Shown here piece after piece: positions 18,802 through 24,562 of a stretch of 64,000 nucleotides of DNA. The position numbers and the translations under genes were made by a program. The notes below the pieces were generated by a model that was given only the letters and a program-made list of their open reading frames with translations, searched no databases and had not been told where the DNA came from. This DNA comes from Acidobacteriaceae bacterium (lineage in GTDB: Bacteria; Acidobacteriota; Terriglobia; Terriglobales; Acidobacteriaceae), in the NCBI GenBank assembly GCA_003139795.1, contig PLGM01000350.1, forward strand, positions 10,160-74,159, written 5' to 3'. Position 1 is the first letter of the stretch, and each line of letters opens with the position of its first letter.

Positions 18802-19824
18802 TTATTTCTGATTCTGTTTGGTTTCTTCCTTGGCTTTTTGTGCGGCTAGCTTTTCTTGTGCGTCCAGGGCGCGGGCCTGGGCGTCGAGGCCGTTGGTCGG
18901 GTCCCGATGGAAGAACTTCCGCGAGATGTCGGGCCAGAACTCCTGGAAAAGTGAGCCCGCGCCGCCCTCGGCGGTGACGGTCAATCCGTTGGTGATGGTC
19001 TGACCAAAGCCGGAGGTGCCGGAGGGATAGTAGAGATTGGAGATGGCGCCGGAGATGATGTTGCCGGCAACGTTGGAGTAGTTGGGCTCCCACCTGTGTG
19101 TGTTGTCGTGTTTACAGATGACATTGGTGGCCAGGGCATAGAGCAGGCGGTGGGTTTTGGCTCCATGGCCGAGGCGGAAGTAGCGAGGGTCCTGGTGCAG
19201 GATCGCGGGCAGGATGCCATTGCCGATGATGGCGCCGTCGAAGGCGTCAAGATAAGCCGCCCCCGACCTTTTTCCGAAACCCTCGGCGCCCCAACCGAAT
19301 CCGGTATCGTCGTCAAGGGCCTCGTGGTAGCCGGCGACCAGAACCGCGGCGCCAAAGGCGACCGGATCGGTCGCGGAACGGAAAGCGAGCTTCATTTTCT
19401 GGCTTGCCGTCAATGAGACGGCGTCGCTGCGGTACGAGGTATTGAAGGCGGGCACAATCCCCAAGACCCGCTGTTTCTCCTCCTCCTTGATCTGCTCGTC
19501 GGCTTTTTGGTGCTGGCTTTCTTCCGCGCCGGGCTGCTGAGCGGCGCTTTGGGAGCTGGAACTGCCCTGGGCTGCGGGGCTCTGTGCCGGCGTGGAACTC
19601 GGGGCCGGCTGTGGGGTGGTCTGGCTTTGCGTGGCTGGGTTCTGTTGATCGGGGGACTGGTCAGCGGCAGGCGCGGACTGCGGCTGGGGAGCGTCAGGAA
19701 GCTCTGCAGCGGCAGTAACGACGGGGGCGGAGCGCGGTTCCTGCGAAAAAAGAGCACATGGCAGCGCCAAAAGGGCGACGCCGGTGAAAAATGTTGCAGA
19801 AAGAAGACGAGAGGCCAAACGCAT
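18802..19824 (-). CDS. exported hypothetical protein with P/Q/S-rich linker
   Basis: ATG 19824 gives signal peptide MRLASRLLSATFFTGVALLALPCALFSQ. A ~90-aa low-complexity P/Q/S/A tract follows, then a globular C-terminal domain. No recognisable motif. Confidence 0.6.
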   Translation of the reverse strand: MRLASRLLSATFFTGVALLALPCALFSQEPRSAPVVTAAAELPDAPQPQSAPAADQSPDQQNPATQSQTTPQPAPSSTPAQSPAAQGSSSSQSAAQQPGAEESQHQKADEQIKEEEKQRVLGIVPAFNTSYRSDAVSLTASQKMKLAFRSATDPVAFGAAVLVAGYHEALDDDTGFGWGAEGFGKRSGAAYLDAFDGAIIGNGILPAILHQDPRYFRLGHGAKTHRLLYALATNVICKHDNTHRWEPNYSNVAGNIISGAISNLYYPSGTSGFGQTITNGLTVTAEGGAGSLFQEFWPDISRKFFHRDPTNGLDAQARALDAQEKLAAQKAKEETKQNQK

Positions 19825-20067
19825 CCATTCACCAGTTGTGGAGTCGGCGCCCGCCTGGGTAGGTCCGCCTGGAAAGGCGAATCGAATCGGATCGGGCCGG
19901 ACCGAGCTCAAGGGGGCTATCTTGACGATAAATCACCCCCTTGGCGCAGTTGCTGTTGGGCGCGTCCAGCAGGGCTCCGTTTCATTGCGGGTACACGATC
20001 CCCTTCTGTTAGACGCAATTGAGCGCTCCGCGGACACAGAGATTTGCGCTGGGCAGCTCTGGGCAAA

Positions 20068-20088
20068 CCCAACGCCGGTCGGGTTGGG
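20068..20088 (-). terminator. candidate terminator of the pspA operon
   Basis: CCCAAC...GTTGGG stem just past the pspA stop. On the minus strand it is followed by TTTGCCC. Confidence 0.4.
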
Positions 20089-20091
20089 CCT

Positions 20092-20754
20092 CTATTGGGC
20101 CGTCTGGCGGCTCTTGATCTCCTTCAAGAGCAGTTCGACCTTGTCTTCGCTCTCCAGGGCCTGAAAGCGATCTTCGAGCGTCTCGGGGGACAGGACTTCG
20201 CAGGCGGCGGCATTTTCGGCGGCTTTGATGCGGACGCGGCTCTTCAACCGGCCCATGGCGTGATCCTGGTCAACGCCGACGACCTGGCGGGCCTGGGTGG
20301 CGCGGCCTACGACCTTGGCGCGGCGGTGCTCGGCCACCAGCATCTCGCAGTGGGCACGGGTCTCGTTCAGCTTCTGGTCCAGCTTGTGCAGGGCCTGGCG
20401 CAGATTGTCGGCCTCGTGCTTCTGGTCTTCGGCCTGTTCGGTAAAGCCCTGGACCAACTGGTCGTTGCTCAGGGCGCGTTCGAGGGCGGCGCGGGCCAGG
20501 TCGTCGTGACCCTTCTGCACCGCCAACTCGGCCTTGCGGCGCCATTCCGCGGCCTGCTCCAGGTGCTCGGTACGCTTTCTTTCCAGCAGGTGCTCGTCGG
20601 CAATGGCGATGGCGACCTGGGTCTTTACCTGGAGCAACTGGTTCTCCATGTCCAGGACGATCTGTTTCAACAGCCGCTCGGGATCCTCGGCCTTTTCCAC
20701 CAGGTCGTTGAGATTCGCGCGGAGCAGGGTGCTTACTCTCTCCAGCAGTGCCAT
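20092..20754 (-). CDS. pspA: PspA/IM30 family protein
   Basis: 220 aa, coiled-coil. MALLERVSTLLRANLNDLVEKAEDPERLLKQIVLDMENQL is the canonical PspA N-terminus. Confidence 0.9.
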   Translation of the reverse strand: MALLERVSTLLRANLNDLVEKAEDPERLLKQIVLDMENQLLQVKTQVAIAIADEHLLERKRTEHLEQAAEWRRKAELAVQKGHDDLARAALERALSNDQLVQGFTEQAEDQKHEADNLRQALHKLDQKLNETRAHCEMLVAEHRRAKVVGRATQARQVVGVDQDHAMGRLKSRVRIKAAENAAACEVLSPETLEDRFQALESEDKVELLLKEIKSRQTAQ

Positions 20755-20770
20755 GGGGTTCTCTCCTTTT

Positions 20771-20804
20771 CAGCCTTCAGCTTCTAGCCTCCAGCTCCTA
20801 GCTC
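20771..20804 (-). repeat. short-period repeat; on the mRNA strand a purine-rich run of SD-like units upstream of pspA
   Basis: The minus strand reads GAGCTAGGAGCTGGAGGCTAGAAGCTGAAGGCTG, followed by AAAAGGAGAGAACCCC-ATG. Confidence 0.6.
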
Positions 20805-20852
20805 TTTTTGTTGACAACCGGCAGTTGTGCTTCCTTTGTTCATTCAGCCACT

Positions 20853-20894
20853 CAGCCTCCGGCTCCCACTCGACCGGCTGGGAGCCAGAGGCTG
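20853..20894. repeat. 16-bp-stem hairpin between flotillin stop and pspA start
   Basis: CAGCCTCCGGCTCCCA (20853-20868) pairs with TGGGAGCCAGAGGCTG (20879-20894), 15/16 bp, 10-nt loop. No U-run follows on the minus strand. Confidence 0.6.
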
Positions 20895-20911
20895 AAGGCT
20901 GGCGGCTATTT

Positions 20912-22318
20912 CTATTTCTCTTGCGGTTTCTCCTTCATGGCCTTGACGTTGGACATTAGTTGCTTGATGTCCATGCCGCTGAGGGCCTCAAACAGCGCCG
21001 GGACCTGGGCGGCGATGCGGGTCATGTCGCCGGTGATCTTGTGGACGCCGGCAGCGTCGTCGTTGCCGGTGGAGACGATGGTGATCTTGTCCACCTTGCT
21101 GAGCGGCTCGGCCATGGCGCGGACGACGTCGGCCATGTTGGTGAGCAGCTTGTCGACCACCGCGGCCTGGTTCCACTGCTGGTAGGCTTCGGCCTTGACG
21201 CTCATGGCCTTGGCTTCGGCTTCGCCTTTCTGGAAGATGATGCTGGCCTCGGCTTCGCCCTGGGCGCGGATGGCGGATGCGCGGCCCTCGGCTTCGACGG
21301 TCAGGCGCGACTTCTCTGCATTGGCCAGGTTCTCAATGCGCTGGCGCTCGATTTCGGCGGCCTTGAGGACGGTGGCGATGAGCTGCTTTTCGTTGCGCAG
21401 GATTTCCGCTTCCTGAACCTTGATCTGGCCCTCCTTTTCCACCTGCTGCACCTTCACCTGCTCGGCGGTGACCTGCTGCAACATGACGTTGGTCTGCAAC
21501 TCGTAAGCCTTGTCGGCCGTGGCCTGCTGGCGACGGCTCTGCTCGGAGTATTGCGCCTTCTTGATCTCCAGATCGCGCTGCGCCTCTGCCTGGCGGGTTT
21601 GCGAGGCGGTCTCGGCGATGACCCGCTCCTGGTCAGCCTGGGCTTTGGCCACCGCGGACTCGCGGAGGGCAGTTGCGCGGCGGATGGCGGTGTCGCGCTC
21701 GGCCTCGGCCGTGGCCATTTCCGCGTCGCGCTTGATGCGGGCCACGTCGGGGCGGCCCATGTTGGAGATGTACTCGTTCTTGTCGCGGACTTCCTTGATG
21801 GTGAAGGAGATGACCTCCAGGCCCATCTTGCTCATGTCTTCCGCGCAGGTGGCGCGCATCCGTTCGCCCACCATCTCCGGCTCCTTGACGATCTGCTCCA
21901 CGGTCAACTGGCCGATGATTCCGCGCAGGTGGCCTTCCATCACCAGGCGGATGAGGCCCTCGCGCTGGGGCGGCGCCTTGGTGAGGAACTGCTCGGCCGC
22001 GGTGAGGATGGAGGCCTGGTCGCTGCGCACCTTGATCTGCGCAACTGCCTCGACGGTTACGGCGACGCCCTGCTTGGTATAGAGGTCCTGCTGCGGGGCG
22101 ACGTCGAAGCTCATCAGCTCCAGGCTCAGCTCGCGGCAGTTCTCCACCATGGGAAAGATCACTGTGCCGTGGCCCTTGATAACGCGGGGGCCGCGGAATC
22201 CGTAGACAATCAAGGCCTCGTTGGGTCCGGCCTTGCGGTACATCCTGGCCACCAGGCCGAGGATCATGATCAGCGCCAGTATGCCTAGTCCGACAATCAG
22301 AACAATTTCATTGGTCAT
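20912..22318 (-). CDS. flotillin / SPFH (band 7) family protein
   Basis: 468 aa. An N-terminal TM helix is followed by the SPFH domain (GPNEALIVYG...VIFPMVE...) and a long A/E/Q-rich coiled coil, as in FloT/YqiK. Confidence 0.9.
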   Translation of the reverse strand: MTNEIVLIVGLGILALIMILGLVARMYRKAGPNEALIVYGFRGPRVIKGHGTVIFPMVENCRELSLELMSFDVAPQQDLYTKQGVAVTVEAVAQIKVRSDQASILTAAEQFLTKAPPQREGLIRLVMEGHLRGIIGQLTVEQIVKEPEMVGERMRATCAEDMSKMGLEVISFTIKEVRDKNEYISNMGRPDVARIKRDAEMATAEAERDTAIRRATALRESAVAKAQADQERVIAETASQTRQAEAQRDLEIKKAQYSEQSRRQQATADKAYELQTNVMLQQVTAEQVKVQQVEKEGQIKVQEAEILRNEKQLIATVLKAAEIERQRIENLANAEKSRLTVEAEGRASAIRAQGEAEASIIFQKGEAEAKAMSVKAEAYQQWNQAAVVDKLLTNMADVVRAMAEPLSKVDKITIVSTGNDDAAGVHKITGDMTRIAAQVPALFEALSGMDIKQLMSNVKAMKEKPQEK

Positions 22319-22364
22319 TGCAATCCCGGCCCTTTCGCCCGGGAGGTGAGCGGTGGATGGTTAA

Positions 22365-22433
22365 GTGCCAGTCATCAGTTGTCAGTTGCCAGTTGCCAGT
22401 CATCCGTTGTCAGTCTTCAGTTGTCAGTTGCCG
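22365..22433 (-). repeat. short-period CTGACAAC/CTGGCAAC repeat tract upstream of the flotillin gene
   Basis: The minus strand reads GGCAACTGACAACTGAAGACTGACAACGGATGACTGGCAACTGGCAACTGACAACTGATGACTGGCAC. It contains a 22-mer identical to 23954-23975. Confidence 0.8.
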
Positions 22434-22475
22434 GCTATTGCAGCCTGTAACCGATCACTGATCGCCGACTCCCGA

Positions 22476-22595
22476 TCACTGCCTGGAGCCGGCGTTGCGG
22501 CCGGTCCTGGGAAAGACTTTGGCCAGCAATCCCAGCAAAAAGATGCCTACCAGGATGGCCATGTCTGCTATCAGCACGGTGGTGTCGGTGGTCAT
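22476..22595 (-). CDS. unlisted 39-aa single-TM micropeptide between NfeD and flotillin
   Basis: My own translation is MTTDTTVLIADMAILVGIFLLGLLAKVFPRTGRNAGSRQ*. It starts 25 nt after the NfeD stop, has a weak AAAGGA upstream, and combines a hydrophobic core with a basic tail. It is below the ORF-track length cut-off. Confidence 0.4.
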   Translation of the reverse strand: MTTDTTVLIADMAILVGIFLLGLLAKVFPRTGRNAGSRQ

Positions 22596-22619
22596 GAGGC
22601 CCCGGTCCTTTCAGCCGGG

Positions 22620-23369
22620 TCAGGGAACAGGGATTAGGGAACAGGGAACAGAAGTGCGCGTCCTACGCTCTTGGTTGCCAGGGAAACTAGCCGGACCTGT
22701 TCCCTGTTCCCTCGTTCCCTGTTCTTGGCCTATCTCCGGCAGGTCTTCCCAGCGGCGAACATAGGCGATTCCTTTTTCGTAACGGACGACGAAGACCTCT
22801 TCCTGTTTTTGAATGGGTACGCCGTCCTCGGAACGCGCCGGGGCAGAGCGGAGCGCACCGAGTTGTTCGTAGACCATCTCTCCGGTACCGGCGGCCCGGA
22901 TGGGCGCCGAGACGCGGCCCACGACGCCGATGACTGCCGTTTCGTCGGCGGTGAGTTCGCGCTCGTGGGGGAGCAGGACCTTGGCGAGAAAGAAGAAGAC
23001 GATGGCTCCTCCGGCCACGCCGCAGACCAGGGCCAGCACCACGACGACCGCAGCGACAAAGCTGCCGTAGCGCGTGAGCAGGTAGCCGGCGGCGCCAAAC
23101 CAGCAGAGAAAGACCATGATGGAAAAGGCATTCCACCAGGGAACAGTAGCGGTTCCCTGAGCTGATGGCTGGCCGGGCGCGGTCTGCGGGACGTAGGCGG
23201 CGTGCGGGAGTCCGTGCGGAATGTGGGCGACGGTGGGGATGTGGACCGGGTGGGGCATATGCGGCGCGTGGATGTGCCAGCCGATGTGGCCCATGCCGCC
23301 CAGCAGCGAGAGGGCGCTGAGCAGCAGTCCAACGACAAAGCAAACGAGATAGAACAGTTCCCAGGTCAT
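22620..23369 (-). CDS. NfeD-like membrane protein (YqiJ/YuaF-like; TM region + C-terminal OB fold)
   Basis: The N-terminal TM region has a His/Pro-rich loop, followed by further TM helices. The C-terminal region VIGVVGRVSAPIRAAGTGEMVYE...VFVVRYEKGIAYV looks like an NfeD OB fold. ATGA start/stop overlap with the XRE gene. Its position upstream of flotillin is the classical pairing. Confidence 0.8.
   Translation of the reverse strand: MTWELFYLVCFVVGLLLSALSLLGGMGHIGWHIHAPHMPHPVHIPTVAHIPHGLPHAAYVPQTAPGQPSAQGTATVPWWNAFSIMVFLCWFGAAGYLLTRYGSFVAAVVVVLALVCGVAGGAIVFFFLAKVLLPHERELTADETAVIGVVGRVSAPIRAAGTGEMVYEQLGALRSAPARSEDGVPIQKQEEVFVVRYEKGIAYVRRWEDLPEIGQEQGTREQGTGPASFPGNQERRTRTSVPCSLIPVP
22623..22724. 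repeat. GGGAACAG-period inverted repeat (long hairpin) overlapping the NfeD 3' end and stop codon
   Basis: GGAACAGGGAACAG (22638-22651) is the perfect complement of CTGTTCCCTGTTCC (22697-22710). The arms extend imperfectly to ~27 bp, with a 45-nt loop. Confidence 0.85.
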
Positions 23370-23944
23370 TTTTGCGTACCGTGATTTCGTGCTTCGGGCT
23401 TGCGTGCTTCCGGCTTGCGTGATCCAGTCTGCCTTGCGCTGGGTCTCTGCGCCTTCAAGTCCAGGGGTCTGGGTTCAAGTTTGGGGCGCAGCACTTCAGT
23501 GAGGCGCGGCATCAGGCCCGGCGTCTGAAGAATCGCTTCGAGCAGCAGCAGGCATTCGCGGGAGCGCTCGTAGCGGGCCAGGGTGAGCAGGGCGGCCATT
23601 AGCTCGGGGTCGCGGCGGAAGCGCTCGGCGCCGGAGACGAGCCAGAGGTCGAGCTTGTCTTCGAGCGAGCGCAGGTCGCTTTGCAGCTCGGGGTGGTAGC
23701 CTTCGGGGTCGTCGACCAGGTAGCCGGGGTGGACCTTGAAAAATTTGGCCAGAATCTGGCGCGTGGTGTTGGTCAGGTGGGGGCGGGCGCCGCTCTCGAT
23801 CTGCGAGAGGTAGCTCTGGCTGAGCTTGGAGCCGGTTTCGGCTTCGATGGCGCGGACCGTCTCCTGCTGGCTCAGGTCGCGGTCAAGGCCCCGGATGCTG
23901 CCCTCAACTTCGCGCAAGTAACGGATTTTCTCGCCGAGCTTCAT
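23366..23944 (-). CDS. XRE-family HTH transcriptional regulator with C-terminal helical domain
   Basis: MKLGEKIRYLREVEG...LSQSYLSQIESGARPHLTNTTRQILAKFF is an HTH_XRE (Cro/C1-type) domain. First gene of the operon. Confidence 0.85.
   Translation of the reverse strand: MKLGEKIRYLREVEGSIRGLDRDLSQQETVRAIEAETGSKLSQSYLSQIESGARPHLTNTTRQILAKFFKVHPGYLVDDPEGYHPELQSDLRSLEDKLDLWLVSGAERFRRDPELMAALLTLARYERSRECLLLLEAILQTPGLMPRLTEVLRPKLEPRPLDLKAQRPSARQTGSRKPEARKPEARNHGTQK
23388..23421 (-). repeat. 15-nt tandem duplication inside the XRE gene 3' end
   Basis: CGTGCTTCGGGCTTG / CGTGCTTCCGGCTTG (plus strand) encodes the duplicated peptide RKPEA-RKPEA. Confidence 0.85.
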
Positions 23945-23953
23945 GGTTGACCA

Positions 23954-23975
23954 GTTGTCAGTCTTCAGTTGTCAG
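23954..23975 (-). promoter_or_regulatory. 22-nt motif CTGACAACTGAAGACTGACAAC abutting the XRE start codon, identical to 22406-22427
   Basis: Exact 22/22 identity between the two sites. This copy ends 9 nt upstream of ATG 23944, and no SD sequence lies in between. Confidence 0.35.
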
Positions 23976-24032: not shown

Positions 24033-24109
24033 TGCAATGGTAGCGCCTTTCGGCCGGCGGTCCATTGCAATATGCAATAGGTATATCGCAATCTGCAATA
24101 AATTGCAAG
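24033..24109. promoter_or_regulatory. array of (T/C)GCAAT hexamers in the AT-rich divergent XRE/VOC intergenic region (candidate operator/promoter)
   Basis: TGCAAT at 24033, 24066, 24073 and 24094; CGCAAT at 24087; TTGCAAG at 24103. ATTGCAAT (24064-24071) is a perfect palindrome. Confidence 0.35.
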
Positions 24110-24211
24110 AGGGTTTGGAAAAATATTTTTGCCGAGGGATTTTGGTTCGAAATTCCGCGGGTTGGGCGTGCAGAGTGGGCTTCACGTCAACTTTGCGAGG
24201 AGAGCGTTTCC

Positions 24212-24562
24212 ATGCCCAATCCGGTTCTGCATTTCGAGATTATCGGGGAGAACCAGCAACTGCTGAACAACTTCTACAGTGGCGTATTCGACTGGCGGAT
24301 CGACCCGATCATGGATGAATATTCGCTGGTCAAAACGGGCTCGGGCAGCGGCGGGGGCATTGGCGCCATGAAGGAAGCCCGGCGTCATGTCACTTTTTAT
24401 GTTGAGGTTGCGGATGTGGCGGCTGCGTTGGCCCTGATCGAGAGCAAGGGCGGAAAGCTCGCGTTCGGGCCGCATCCGGTACCCACCGGCGCCATCATCG
24501 CAGGGTTCACCGATCCCGAAGGTCACCTGGTGGGGCTGGTGCAGCAGCCGGTGAAGCAATAA
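24212..24562 (+). CDS. VOC (glyoxalase/bleomycin-resistance/dioxygenase) family protein
   Basis: ATG 24212 follows GAGGAGAG. MPNPVLHFEIIGEN...FYSGVFDW...GFTDPEGHLVGLV is typical of small VOC proteins. Confidence 0.8.
   Translation: MPNPVLHFEIIGENQQLLNNFYSGVFDWRIDPIMDEYSLVKTGSGSGGGIGAMKEARRHVTFYVEVADVAAALALIESKGGKLAFGPHPVPTGAIIAGFTDPEGHLVGLVQQPVKQ

What the first reader, a model, noticed from the sequence alone, without database searches (positions are those of the whole stretch)
20092..23944. Five-gene membrane-stress operon fusing an XRE regulator, NfeD, a micropeptide, flotillin and PspA
Seen: the co-directional minus-strand genes are XRE (23944-23366), NfeD-like (ATGA overlap), a 39-aa TM ORF, flotillin and PspA. 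There is a terminator-like hairpin only after pspA. Known: NfeD-flotillin pairs are classical. PspA is linked to a flotillin-like protein in the B. subtilis pspA-ydjGHI operon. An XRE-family regulator (ClgR) heads the M. tuberculosis clgR-pspA operon. Inference: this locus unites all three themes in a single self-regulated unit. That implies physical or functional coupling of membrane-microdomain scaffolding (flotillin) with ESCRT-III-like membrane repair (PspA). I am not aware of this exact five-gene combination having been described.
Basis: partly seen in the sequence, partly recalled or inferred. Interest (0 to 1): 0.65.

Follow-up and report, generated by a model that had tools for sequence, protein, structure and literature searches.

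The report
Known-type regulator–NfeD–flotillin–PspA membrane-stress operon
The five genes are real and form a widely conserved, probably self-repressed membrane-maintenance operon, but the regulator–NfeD–flotillin–PspA combination was already described in Acidobacteriota in 2022; the new details are its operator sites and a small gene copied from the flotillin membrane anchor.

Summary
All five minus-strand ORFs exist at the stated coordinates. Domain and profile searches support an HTH regulator, a YuaF-type NfeD, a FloT-like flotillin and PspA.

- **Gene order:** the regulator–nfeD–flotillin–pspA order is kept in all 74 sufficiently long loci among 80 species-level loci. These include Bryobacteraceae, Thermoanaerobaculia, Binatia and Udaeobacter MAGs, where the genes lie 4–44 nt apart.
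- **Regulation:** a sigma-70-like promoter carries two palindromic operators (TATTGCA-N3-TGCAATA, 21–22 bp apart). They occur only upstream of the regulator: 116 sites there against 1 in 856 kb elsewhere. This points to autorepression and a single promoter.
- **The 39-aa ORF:** it is a real gene (pN/pS 0.27 in frame, above 1 in the other frames). It is homologous to the flotillin N-terminal anchor (hhalign 93%) and restricted to Terracidiphilus-like Acidobacteriaceae.
- **Errors in the finding:** strong hairpins also follow nfeD and flotillin. The regulator's nearest solved relative is EspR; ClgR was not compared. Popp et al. 2022 (PMC9239133) already reported HTH + NfeD + Band7/FloT + PspA operons in Acidobacteriota, and Ravi et al. 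2024 reported PspA + flotillin + YuaF/YqiJ.

Verdict: a new member of a known kind, of modest interest.

The parts
24103..24108 (-). -35-like hexamer TTGCAA (TTGACA in many relatives)
   Evidence: Read from the sequence. The position is conserved in the alignment of upstream regions. A sigma-70-like match of at least 9/12 occurs upstream of the regulator in 27/76 loci, against 0/74 upstream of pspA and 2/74 upstream of flotillin.
24084..24100 (.). Operator O1, a 17-bp palindrome (TATTGCAGATTGCGATA on the coding strand), lying in the -35/-10 spacer and overlapping the -10
   Evidence: One mismatch to TATTGCA-N3-TGCAATA.
24080..24085 (-). -10-like hexamer TATACC, 17 nt after the -35
   Evidence: Read from the sequence. 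A weak match; its role is inferred.
24063..24079 (.). Operator O2, a second copy of the palindrome 21 bp from O1, just downstream of the -10
   Evidence: 46 of 78 loci have two sites, spaced 21-22 bp apart in 44 of the 46 adjacent pairs.
23952..23975 (-). Heptamer array (CTGACAA/CTGAAGA) in the 5' leader, ending 7 nt before the regulator's ATG
   Evidence: The same 22-mer recurs at 22406-22427. The closest relatives L001 and L002 carry a different heptamer family at this position.
23366..23944 (-). Cro/C1-type (XRE) HTH regulator, 192 aa: HTH at residues 1-80, a conserved four-helix C-terminal domain at 97-152, and a disordered basic tail
   Evidence: HTH_3 E=5e-5. The family profile hits EspR at E about 1e-6 over residues 25-85. 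AF2 model. pN/pS 0.11-0.12.
22620..23369 (-). Short YuaF-type NfeD-like membrane protein: TM1, a His-rich loop, TM2, TM3 and a C-terminal OB-like domain. Residues from about 213 to 249 are a non-conserved tail encoded by the heptamer hairpin.
22621..22724 (-). Inverted GGGAACA / TGTTCCC heptamer arrays forming a long hairpin across the nfeD stop codon
   Evidence: I4, I6, I7; -70.9 kcal/mol for the folded segment, z -5.7. No U-tract follows.
22600..22619 (-). Small hairpin CCCGG-CU-GAAAGGA-CCGGGG, 4 nt before the ATG of the 39-aa gene
   Evidence: The motif GAAAGGRCCGG lies upstream of the small gene in 22/65 loci.
22476..22595 (-). 39-aa single-pass membrane protein gene, a paralogue of the flotillin N-terminal anchor
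   Evidence: The ORF is intact in 65 loci. pN/pS is 0.27 in frame against 1.15 and 2.25 out of frame. hhalign against the flotillin N-terminus gives probability 93%, E 4e-8, while controls stay below 0.3%. Public gene calls name it 'hypothetical protein'.
22366..22430 (-). Direct array of about 9 heptamers ([CT]AACTG[AG] type) between the small gene and flotillin
   Evidence: (D1). The near-identical relative L001 has about 26 units at this position.
22325..22343 (-). Hairpin CCCGGG-CGAAAGG-GCCGGG, 6 nt before the flotillin ATG
   Evidence: Found upstream of flotillin in 57/75 loci. 79 of 82 occurrences across all loci lie before flotillin or the small gene.
20912..22318 (-). FloT-like flotillin, 468 aa: N-terminal anchor, SPFH/Band_7 domain and a coiled-coil Flot domain
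   Evidence: NCBIfam FloT E=2.4e-96, score 323.7, below the 700 cut-off. 83-99% identical across Acidobacteriaceae loci and 71-77% in distant phyla.
20845..20901 (-). Long GC-rich hairpin just after the flotillin stop codon, without a U-tract
   Evidence: -65.4 kcal/mol for the folded segment, z -4.5. Only spurious miRNA matches in Rfam.
20769..20802 (-). Direct heptamer array (GCTGRAG type) ending at the pspA Shine-Dalgarno sequence
20092..20754 (-). PspA/IM30 (ESCRT-III-like) protein, 220 aa, with a canonical AAAGGAG Shine-Dalgarno sequence
   Evidence: PspA_IM30 E=2e-33, 116 bits against a cut-off of 33.9. A Shine-Dalgarno sequence is conserved across loci; the exact heptamer AAGGAGG occurs in 34/74.
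20065..20091 (-). Weak terminator-like hairpin after pspA (CCCAACCCGACCGGCGUUGGG + UUUG)
   Evidence: z -1.0. Conserved in L001 and L002.

Best explanation
The locus is a Terracidiphilus-type copy of a widespread four-gene membrane-maintenance cassette: HTH regulator, short NfeD, flotillin, PspA. It is driven from one sigma-70-like promoter upstream of the regulator gene.

Shown here:
- The genes and their families.
- The conserved gene order and the regulator/nfeD translational overlap.
- Two 17-bp palindromic operators, 21 bp apart, that straddle the -10 and occur nowhere else.
- The absence of conserved promoter-like or operator sequences in the internal spacers.

Inferred:
- The regulator binds the two operators as a pair of dimers and represses its own promoter, and with it the whole operon.
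- An unknown membrane-stress signal relieves repression. This may act through the conserved C-terminal helical domain contacting PspA or the membrane proteins, as in the PspA-PspF and PspA-ClgR feedback loops.
- The NfeD-like protein then partners the FloT-like flotillin in the membrane, as YuaF does with FloT.
- The flotillin scaffold recruits or nucleates PspA polymers at damaged membrane, as the SPFH protein YdjI does for PspA in B. subtilis.

In the Terracidiphilus lineage the compact operon has been expanded in three ways:
- A 5' piece of flotillin (hairpin, start codon and membrane anchor) was duplicated. It survives as a selected 39-aa membrane protein.
- Hypervariable heptamer arrays and hairpins fill the spacers. 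They may tune mRNA stability or translation of the individual cistrons.
- In many relatives, extra envelope genes sit between flotillin and pspA.
For: - **Families:**
- **Gene order:** all 74 loci with enough sequence keep regulator-nfeD-flotillin-pspA on one strand. These include MAGs labelled Acidiferrales, Bryobacteraceae, Thermoanaerobaculia, Binatia, Deltaproteobacteria and Verrucomicrobiia. Udaeobacter- and Binatia-named regulators lie in the same context with gaps of -4, 11 and 20 nt.
- **Overlap:** the regulator and nfeD overlap by 4 nt in 47/74 loci.
- **Operators:** 116 sites lie within 260 nt upstream of the regulator in 78 loci, against 1 site in the other 856 kb. 46 loci have two sites, spaced 21-22 bp apart in 44 of the 46 adjacent pairs. 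The window has two sites with 1 mismatch each, at 24063-24079 and 24084-24100 only.
- **Promoters:** sigma-70-like matches occur upstream of the regulator in 27/76 loci, upstream of pspA in 0/74 and upstream of flotillin in 2/74.
- **Small gene:**
- **Functional analogies:** YdjI is required for PspA membrane recruitment (PMC8581546). The association of PspA with Band7/FloT, NfeD and HTH in Acidobacteriota was already inferred by Popp et al. 2022.
Against: - No transcript data exist for this locus.
- In this window two spacers are 157 nt long and hold very stable hairpins. These could terminate or process the transcript.
- By the 150-bp rule of Popp et al. the window's genes would be split into three units.
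- 37 of 74 loci carry 0.45-2.9 kb of extra DNA, often with extra genes, between flotillin and pspA. Tight coupling of these two genes is therefore not obligatory.
- Promoters for alternative sigma factors, such as ECF sigmas, were not searched for.
- Repression rather than activation is inferred only from operator position.
- Nothing here shows protein-protein contacts.
Confidence: 0.75

Rival explanations
1. The genes are neighbours but form separate transcription units: regulator-nfeD-small gene, flotillin, and pspA. The stable hairpins would act as terminators, and unrecognised internal promoters (for example ECF-sigma type) would drive flotillin and pspA. The regulator would then control only itself and nfeD.
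For: - The spacers are 157 nt long and hold hairpins of z -4.5 and -5.7 directly after nfeD and flotillin.
- The flotillin-pspA junction is variable, with inserted genes in half of the loci.
- In B. subtilis, yuaF-floT and pspA-ydjGHI are separate operons (context).
Against: - The hairpins lack U-tracts.
- No operator and no conserved sigma-70-like promoter lies in the internal spacers.
- The only conserved motifs upstream of flotillin and pspA are translation-initiation elements.
- Compact relatives have gaps of 4-44 nt, and gene order is invariant in 74/74 loci.
Confidence: 0.15
2. The regulator is an activator like ClgR, or a nucleoid-associated protein like EspR, rather than an autorepressor. 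The paired sites would recruit or stabilise RNA polymerase.
For: - ClgR heads the clgR-pspA operon.
- The nearest solved relative is EspR, which is annotated as a nucleoid-associated regulator.
- The -10 element is weak (TATACC), as is common for activated promoters.
Against: - O1 lies inside the -35/-10 spacer and O2 directly after the -10. This is the classical geometry of repression.
- The sites are confined to this one promoter: 1 site in 856 kb elsewhere. That is unlike a nucleoid-associated protein.
Confidence: 0.2
3. The 39-aa ORF is a decaying remnant of a partial flotillin duplication, not a functional gene.
For: - It is homologous to the flotillin N-terminus and shares its upstream hairpin.
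- It is absent from distant cassettes and from six Acidobacteriaceae loci.
- It has no annotation beyond 'hypothetical protein'.
Against: - The ORF, with an ATG and a length of 36-43 aa, is intact in about 60 species-level genomes.
- pN/pS is 0.27 in frame against 1.15 and 2.25 in the other frames. This equals the value for TM1 of the NfeD-like protein, 0.28.
- The flanking spacers are not alignable even between close relatives.
Confidence: 0.1

Closest known systems
Acidobacteriota PspA network of Popp et al. 2022 (mSystems, PMC9239133): PspA with Band7/FloT, NfeD and an HTH regulator
   Same: The domain set is the same (PspA_IM30, Band_7+Flot, NfeD, HTH), the genes share one orientation, and the phylum is the same. 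The authors also proposed that the HTH protein regulates the operon.
   Different: - That work gives a phylum-level consensus from 19 PspAs, at domain level only. It defines no operator or promoter, no small gene and no spacer repeats.
- The cassette is shown here to extend beyond Acidobacteriota.
- In this window two gaps (157 nt) exceed their 150-bp operon rule.
PspA operons with a TM+band-7+flotillin protein and a YqiJ/YuaF 3TM protein (Ravi et al. 2024, PMC11237479)
   Same: PspA is encoded together with a flotillin and a YuaF-type membrane protein.
   Different: Those operons are built around a CesT/Tir-PspA dyad and often an AAA+ ATPase. No such genes occur here, and an HTH regulator heads the operon instead.
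B. subtilis yuaF-floT(-yuaI) and pspA-ydjGHI operons
   Same: - The NfeD-like C-terminal domain matches the YuaF structure 2K14.
- The flotillin is FloT-like.
- An SPFH protein (YdjI) is needed to bring PspA to the membrane (PMC8581546).
   Different: - In Bacillus the two modules are separate operons, and the SPFH partner of PspA is YdjI, not FloT.
- Both Bacillus operons are under SigW control (my own knowledge, not checked here).
- Here both modules sit in one cassette under an HTH regulator.
M. tuberculosis clgR-pspA-pspM-pspN
   Same: A Cro-like HTH regulator gene heads an operon that contains pspA.
   Different: - ClgR is described as Actinobacteria-specific. It is about 110 aa (my own knowledge, not checked here).
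- This regulator is 162-192 aa, with a conserved helical C-terminal domain.
- Its nearest solved relative is EspR.
- The partners are NfeD and flotillin, not PspM and PspN.
TAACTGA-type intergenic heptamer direct repeats (MacGregor 2015, PMC4679880)
   Same: Tandem heptamers ([CT]AACTG[AG]) lie in intergenic DNA within a few nucleotides of start codons, and their copy number is variable.
   Different: - That paper reports them in Beggiatoaceae, Cyanobacteria and Bacteroidetes, not Acidobacteriota.
- Several unrelated heptamer units coexist here, and some form inverted pairs (hairpins).

Membership tests
Acidobacteriota-type PspA operon (Popp et al. 2022) | PspA_IM30 protein | tested here: met
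   116.3 bits against a cut-off of 33.9.
Acidobacteriota-type PspA operon (Popp et al. 2022) | Band_7 + Flot protein encoded next to pspA on the same strand | tested here: met
   Band_7 4.4e-30 and Flot 1.5e-6. Adjacent, on the same strand.
Acidobacteriota-type PspA operon (Popp et al. 2022) | NfeD partner protein in the neighbourhood | tested here: met
   The family profile hits YuaF 2K14 at E=1.1e-6. PF01957 is hit by 6/13 members. Homologues carry PF25842 NfeD_TM. The window protein alone gives no Pfam hit.
Acidobacteriota-type PspA operon (Popp et al. 2022) | HTH regulator encoded in the operon | tested here: met
   HTH_3 at 23.7 bits against a cut-off of 23. Overlaps nfeD by 4 nt.
Acidobacteriota-type PspA operon (Popp et al. 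2022) | Their operon rule: same orientation and gaps under 150 bp | tested here: not met
   Two gaps are 157 nt each in this window. The rule is met in compact relatives, with gaps of 4-44 nt.
NfeD family, short YuaF/NfeD2 type | C-terminal OB-fold partner-binding domain | tested here: met
   Profile positions 134-207 align to YuaF residues 9-82 at E=1.1e-6.
NfeD family, short YuaF/NfeD2 type | N-terminal multi-pass membrane region and no ClpP-like protease domain | tested here: met
   Alignment A1 shows three hydrophobic segments. Homologues carry NfeD_TM. At 249 aa there is no room for a protease domain.
NfeD family, short YuaF/NfeD2 type | Encoded next to an SPFH gene | tested here: met
   Flotillin lies downstream in 74/74 loci.
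Flotillin FloT (NCBIfam NF058507 equivalog) | Score above the curated equivalog cut-off | tested here: not met
   323.7 bits against a cut-off of 700. The protein is FloT-like but not a FloT equivalog.
PspA sensu stricto (TIGR02977 equivalog, the proteobacterial Psp system) | Score above the equivalog cut-off | tested here: not met
   120.8 bits against a cut-off of 242.95. This is a generic PspA/IM30 family member.
ClgR-type regulator | Orthology to actinobacterial ClgR | not tested
   No ClgR sequence or model was available. Ravi et al. call ClgR unique to Actinobacteria. Only the operon position and the Cro-like HTH class are shared.
EspR-like regulator | Sequence similarity of the HTH domain | tested here: met
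   Profile A3 against EspR chains gives E=9e-7 to 1.4e-6 over residues 25-85.
EspR-like regulator | EspR-type C-terminal dimerisation domain | tested here: inconclusive
   The C-terminal domain is modelled at pLDDT 58-69 only. The top Foldseek hits are EspR but weak: E=6e-3, TM 0.37, rmsd 9 Å.
TAACTGA-type heptamer repeats (MacGregor 2015) | Tandem direct heptamers in intergenic DNA close to start codons | tested here: met
   The units are mostly CAACTGA, AGACTGA and CAACTGG. Exact TAACTGA units occur in L001.

The most novel reading that the evidence does not exclude
The 39-aa protein is a free-standing copy of the flotillin membrane anchor, kept under selection in Terracidiphilus-like Acidobacteriaceae. 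It would insert into, or compete for, the ring of N-terminal anchors of the flotillin/NfeD assembly. In that way it would set the size, the membrane-domain preference or the PspA-recruiting activity of the scaffold. This would be a small-protein regulator of a bacterial SPFH cage, born by partial gene duplication. The slippage-prone heptamer arrays next to it could tune its dose relative to flotillin.
Probability: 0.2. Interest if true: 0.6.

Novelty: new member of a known kind. Interest (0 to 1): 0.35.

Why it matters
It occurs in dominant soil phyla (Acidobacteriota, Binatia, Udaeobacter). It links two membrane-organising systems, an SPFH/flotillin scaffold and the ESCRT-III-like PspA, under a simple, computationally defined repressor-operator switch.

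That makes the flotillin-PspA connection directly testable outside Firmicutes. The operator and promoter defined here give a handle for reporter and EMSA experiments. The flotillin-derived small protein is a concrete candidate modulator of bacterial flotillin assemblies.

The operon architecture itself is not new.

Tried and rejected
- **Direct scans of the 249-aa and 39-aa proteins:** Pfam and NCBIfam gave nothing, even at E=10. NfeD identity had to come from a family profile.
- **Simple promoter/terminator scan:** no sigma-70 site in 19-25 kb, and terminator-like sites at the chance level. The true promoter fails that scan's rule for the last base of the -10.
- **Rfam (evalue mode):** only two sub-threshold miRNA look-alikes, on the hairpin after flotillin.
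- **PADLOC:** no defence-system family for any of the six proteins, so a defence-island reading was dropped.
- **Operator copies in internal spacers or elsewhere in the window:** none, apart from one 3-mismatch half-site at 22436-22452, which is within chance expectation.
- **Conserved internal sigma-70 promoters:** none.
- **Heptamer arrays as an operon-specific element:** rejected as a general statement. (CAACTGA)3 occurs on at least 120 metagenome contigs of very different GC content, and only 1 of them carries the cassette. A 17-fold local enrichment over the immediate flanks remains.
- **Foldseek on the regulator model:** recognised only the HTH domain. The C-terminal domain stayed unassigned.
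- **DNA-level similarity between the small gene and the flotillin 5' end:** none. The relationship is visible only at protein and profile level and in the shared upstream hairpin.

Full report
**Observation**

The ORF list for 17-27 kb contains the five minus-strand ORFs at exactly the coordinates given:
- 23366-23944 (192 aa).
- 22620-23369 (249 aa). Its ATG overlaps the previous stop as ATGA.
- 22476-22595 (39 aa, 24 nt further on).
- 20912-22318 (468 aa, after a 157-nt spacer).
- 20092-20754 (220 aa, after another 157-nt spacer).

Long ORFs on the opposite strand (20044-20787 and 20960-22288) are the usual antisense artefacts of 62% GC DNA.

Pfam assigns HTH_3 to the first protein (E=5e-5, just above the cut-off). 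It assigns Band_7 plus Flot to the fourth and PspA_IM30 to the fifth. NCBIfam calls the last two FloT-like and PspA-like, but below the equivalog cut-offs.

The second protein has no direct hit, even at E=10. Three indirect results support the NfeD label:
- Its homologues carry the precomputed family PF25842, which names NfeD_TM, and some carry the JGI name for COG1585.
- A profile of 13 family members matches the solved soluble domain of B. subtilis YuaF (NfeD2, PDB 2K14) at E=1.1e-6 over the C-terminal 74 residues.
- Six of the 13 members hit PF01957 NfeD.

It is therefore a short, protease-less, YuaF-type NfeD. It has three membrane segments, a conserved His-rich loop and an OB-like C-terminal domain.

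**The hairpin statement is wrong**

Folding the spacers as RNA shows where the stable structures lie. The energies and z-scores are for the whole folded segments.
- The most stable is a long hairpin of inverted GGGAACA heptamers across the nfeD stop codon (segment 22600-22740, -70.9 kcal/mol, z -5.7).
- The second is a GC-rich hairpin right after the flotillin stop (segment 20760-20908, -65.4 kcal/mol, z -4.5).
- The hairpin after pspA is unremarkable (z -1.0) and ends in UUUG.
- None has a real U-tract, and the pattern scan finds terminator-like sites only at the chance rate.

**Conservation**

A scan of one genome per species with the NfeD-like protein returned 80 loci. Most are Terracidiphilus or Acidobacteriaceae MAGs, plus Acidicapsa dinghuensis. 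Others are labelled Acidiferrales, Bryobacteraceae, Thermoanaerobaculia, Binatia, Deltaproteobacteria and Verrucomicrobiia. The nearest, L001 (Terracidiphilus sp. SPRUCE 696), has 90-100% identical proteins, so the window comes from a Terracidiphilus.

tblastn with the window proteins finds regulator, nfeD, flotillin and pspA in that order on one strand in all 74 loci that are long enough. The loci were chosen by the NfeD-like protein. The result therefore says that this NfeD subfamily always lies in the cassette, not that every PspA does.

The regulator stop overlaps the nfeD start by 4 nt in 47 of 74 loci. In the distant taxa the cassette is compact: nfeD-flotillin gaps are mostly -11 to 8 nt and flotillin-pspA gaps 30-44 nt. 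Independent gene calls on Udaeobacter- and Binatia-related contigs give gaps of -4, 11 and 20 nt.

The cassette is thus very common in soil metagenomes.

**Regulation**

Aligning the DNA upstream of the regulator genes reveals a conserved -35 (TTGACA or TTGCAA). It also reveals two copies of a 17-bp palindrome, TATTGCA-N3-TGCRATA.

In the window these elements are:
- -35: 24103-24108.
- O1: 24084-24100, inside the spacer and overlapping the -10.
- O2: 24063-24079, just after the -10.

With up to two mismatches allowed, 116 sites fall within 260 nt upstream of the regulator in 78 loci. Only one falls in the remaining 856 kb. Forty-six loci have two sites, spaced 21-22 bp apart in 44 of the 46 adjacent pairs.

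Sigma-70-like promoter matches occur upstream of the regulator in 27 of 76 loci. They occur upstream of pspA in 0 of 74 and upstream of flotillin in 2 of 74. The only conserved motifs before these two genes are a Shine-Dalgarno sequence and a small hairpin.

This geometry is what one expects of an autorepressor that controls the whole cassette from a single promoter. Repression and co-transcription are still inferences.

The regulator's nearest solved relative is M. tuberculosis EspR (E about 1e-6 over the HTH). The AF2 model gives a confident HTH (residues 1-80), a moderately confident four-helix domain (97-152) and a disordered basic tail. Foldseek adds nothing beyond Cro/C1-type HTH proteins. 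The four-helix domain is as conserved as the HTH (alignment A3). It is the obvious candidate for signal input.

**The 39-aa ORF**

Three results show that it is a real gene:
- An intact ORF of 36-43 aa with an ATG is present in about 60 species-level genomes.
- Across 64 sequences the core 26 codons give pN/pS 0.27 in frame, against 1.15 and 2.25 in the other frames. TM1 of the NfeD-like protein gives 0.28.
- Public gene callers predict it as 'hypothetical protein', and the exact window peptide is on 118 contigs.

Two results show that it derives from flotillin:
- Its profile aligns to the first 38 residues of flotillin with hhalign probability 93% (E 4e-8). Membrane segments of the NfeD-like protein score below 0.3% (single-sequence alignment).
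- The hairpin motif CCCGG-NN-GAAAGGR-CCGGG precedes the flotillin start in 57/75 loci and the small gene's start in 22/65. It precedes pspA in 0/75, and these positions account for 79 of its 82 occurrences.

The gene is absent from the compact distant cassettes and from six Acidobacteriaceae loci, including Acidicapsa. The simplest history is a tandem duplication of the flotillin 5' end in the Terracidiphilus lineage. The copy was then retained as a free-standing membrane anchor.

**Spacer repeats**

Period-7 tandem arrays in the 64-kb window are concentrated in this locus. Across 74 loci they are 17 times denser within the operon span than in the flanks (0.53 against 0.03 per kb).

They sit just upstream of start codons. 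They also run into the 3' ends of the regulator and nfeD ORFs, producing variable tails.

They are hypervariable. The spacer before flotillin has 9 units in the window and about 26 in L001, whose proteins are 90-100% identical. The leader of the regulator carries a different heptamer family in L001 and L002.

The unit [CT]AACTG[AG] resembles the TAACTGA intergenic repeats described in Beggiatoaceae, Cyanobacteria and Bacteroidetes (PMC4679880). Only one of them carries the cassette. These arrays are therefore a general class of simple repeat, not an element of this operon. Their local enrichment remains unexplained.

**Variable content**

In 37 of 74 loci the flotillin-pspA gap is 450 nt or more. 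It usually holds an extra same-strand gene:
- A secreted DUF2059 protein (22 ORFs in one cluster).
- A Band_7 lipoprotein.
- DUF4019.
- A bacterial PH-domain protein.
- A SurA_N-like protein.

One Thermoanaerobaculia locus has DUF4019 between nfeD and flotillin. The window has no such insert.

**Comparison with the literature**

Popp et al. [quoted passage not shown] They add that HTH regulators are encoded in the PspA operons and may regulate them. 11 of their 19 PspAs had a Band7_Flot neighbour.

Ravi et al. 2024 describe PspA operons with a TM+band-7+flotillin protein and a YqiJ/YuaF protein. Scholz et al. 2021 show that the SPFH protein YdjI is needed to bring PspA to the membrane in B. 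subtilis.

A full-text search for Acidobacteria, phage shock protein and flotillin returns only the Popp paper. No experimental work on this cassette was found.

**Verdict**

The functional reading is reasonable, and comparative data now back it better than before. The architecture, however, is a known kind.

The session adds:
- The promoter-operator pair.
- Evidence that the cassette reaches well beyond Acidobacteriota in a compact form.
- The flotillin-derived small gene.
- A description of how the Terracidiphilus version has been expanded.

No defence-system signature and no known RNA family is present.

Noticed in passing
window 20769-20802, 22366-22430, 22621-22724, 23952-23975; loci L001-L070: Hypervariable heptamer tandem arrays ([CT]AACTG[AG], GGGAACA, GCTGRAG) fill the operon's spacers.
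- They are 17-fold denser in the operon than in the ±6 kb flanks over 74 loci.
- Copy number differs between near-identical relatives: 9 units in the window against about 26 in L001.
- (CAACTGA)3 is widespread in metagenomes, and only 1 of 120 hit contigs carries the cassette. This is a general repeat class, like the TAACTGA repeats of MacGregor 2015, with an unexplained local enrichment.
   Followed up: partly
window 22325-22343 and 22600-22619: A small conserved hairpin, CCCGG-NN-GAAAGGR-CCGGG, lies 4-8 nt before the start codons of flotillin (57/75 loci) and of the 39-aa gene (22/65 loci), and almost nowhere else. Its 3' arm may hold the ribosome-binding bases, so it could gate translation. 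It is nearly invariant in sequence, so covariation cannot test it.
   Followed up: partly
related loci, between flotillin and pspA (e.g. L003 3930-4724, L016 6972-7805, L055 8532-8963); L075 6615-7058: A variable gene slot. 37 of 74 loci carry 0.45-2.9 kb of extra DNA between flotillin and pspA, usually with an extra same-strand envelope gene: DUF2059 secreted protein (the commonest), a Band_7 lipoprotein, DUF4019, a bacterial PH domain or a SurA_N-like protein. The window lacks any insert.
   Followed up: partly
window about 23190-23290 (NfeD-like residues about 28-60): The loop between the first and second membrane segments of the NfeD-like protein is rich in histidine (HxH and PH repeats). 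It stays His-rich even in homologues of 42-47% identity from other phyla. It could bind metal or sense pH.
   Followed up: no
window 22620-22730 and 23380-23421: Repeat arrays run into the 3' ends of two ORFs and create non-conserved low-complexity tails. These are residues from about 213 to 249 of the NfeD-like protein (EQGTREQGTG...) and the RKPEARKPEAR tail of the regulator, which is encoded by a 15-nt repeat.
   Followed up: partly
window 24065-24562 (+), likely true start near 24212: A divergently transcribed VOC/glyoxalase-family gene shares the roughly 267-nt operator-bearing spacer with the regulator gene. It is syntenic in about 35 Terracidiphilus-type loci, so it might be co-regulated from the same operators.
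   Followed up: no
window 18802-19911 (-): A 369-aa protein lies 180 nt downstream of pspA on the same strand. It appears from its sequence to have an N-terminal signal or membrane segment and a Pro/Gln/Ser-rich region, and it has no Pfam hit. It is syntenic in many Terracidiphilus-type loci but absent from distant cassettes.
   Followed up: no
L070 6884-7099; L077 6558-7862; L083 4652-6073: In a few related contigs the flotillin gene is split or truncated by a frameshift or stop codon. This could be pseudogenisation or an assembly error.
   Followed up: no
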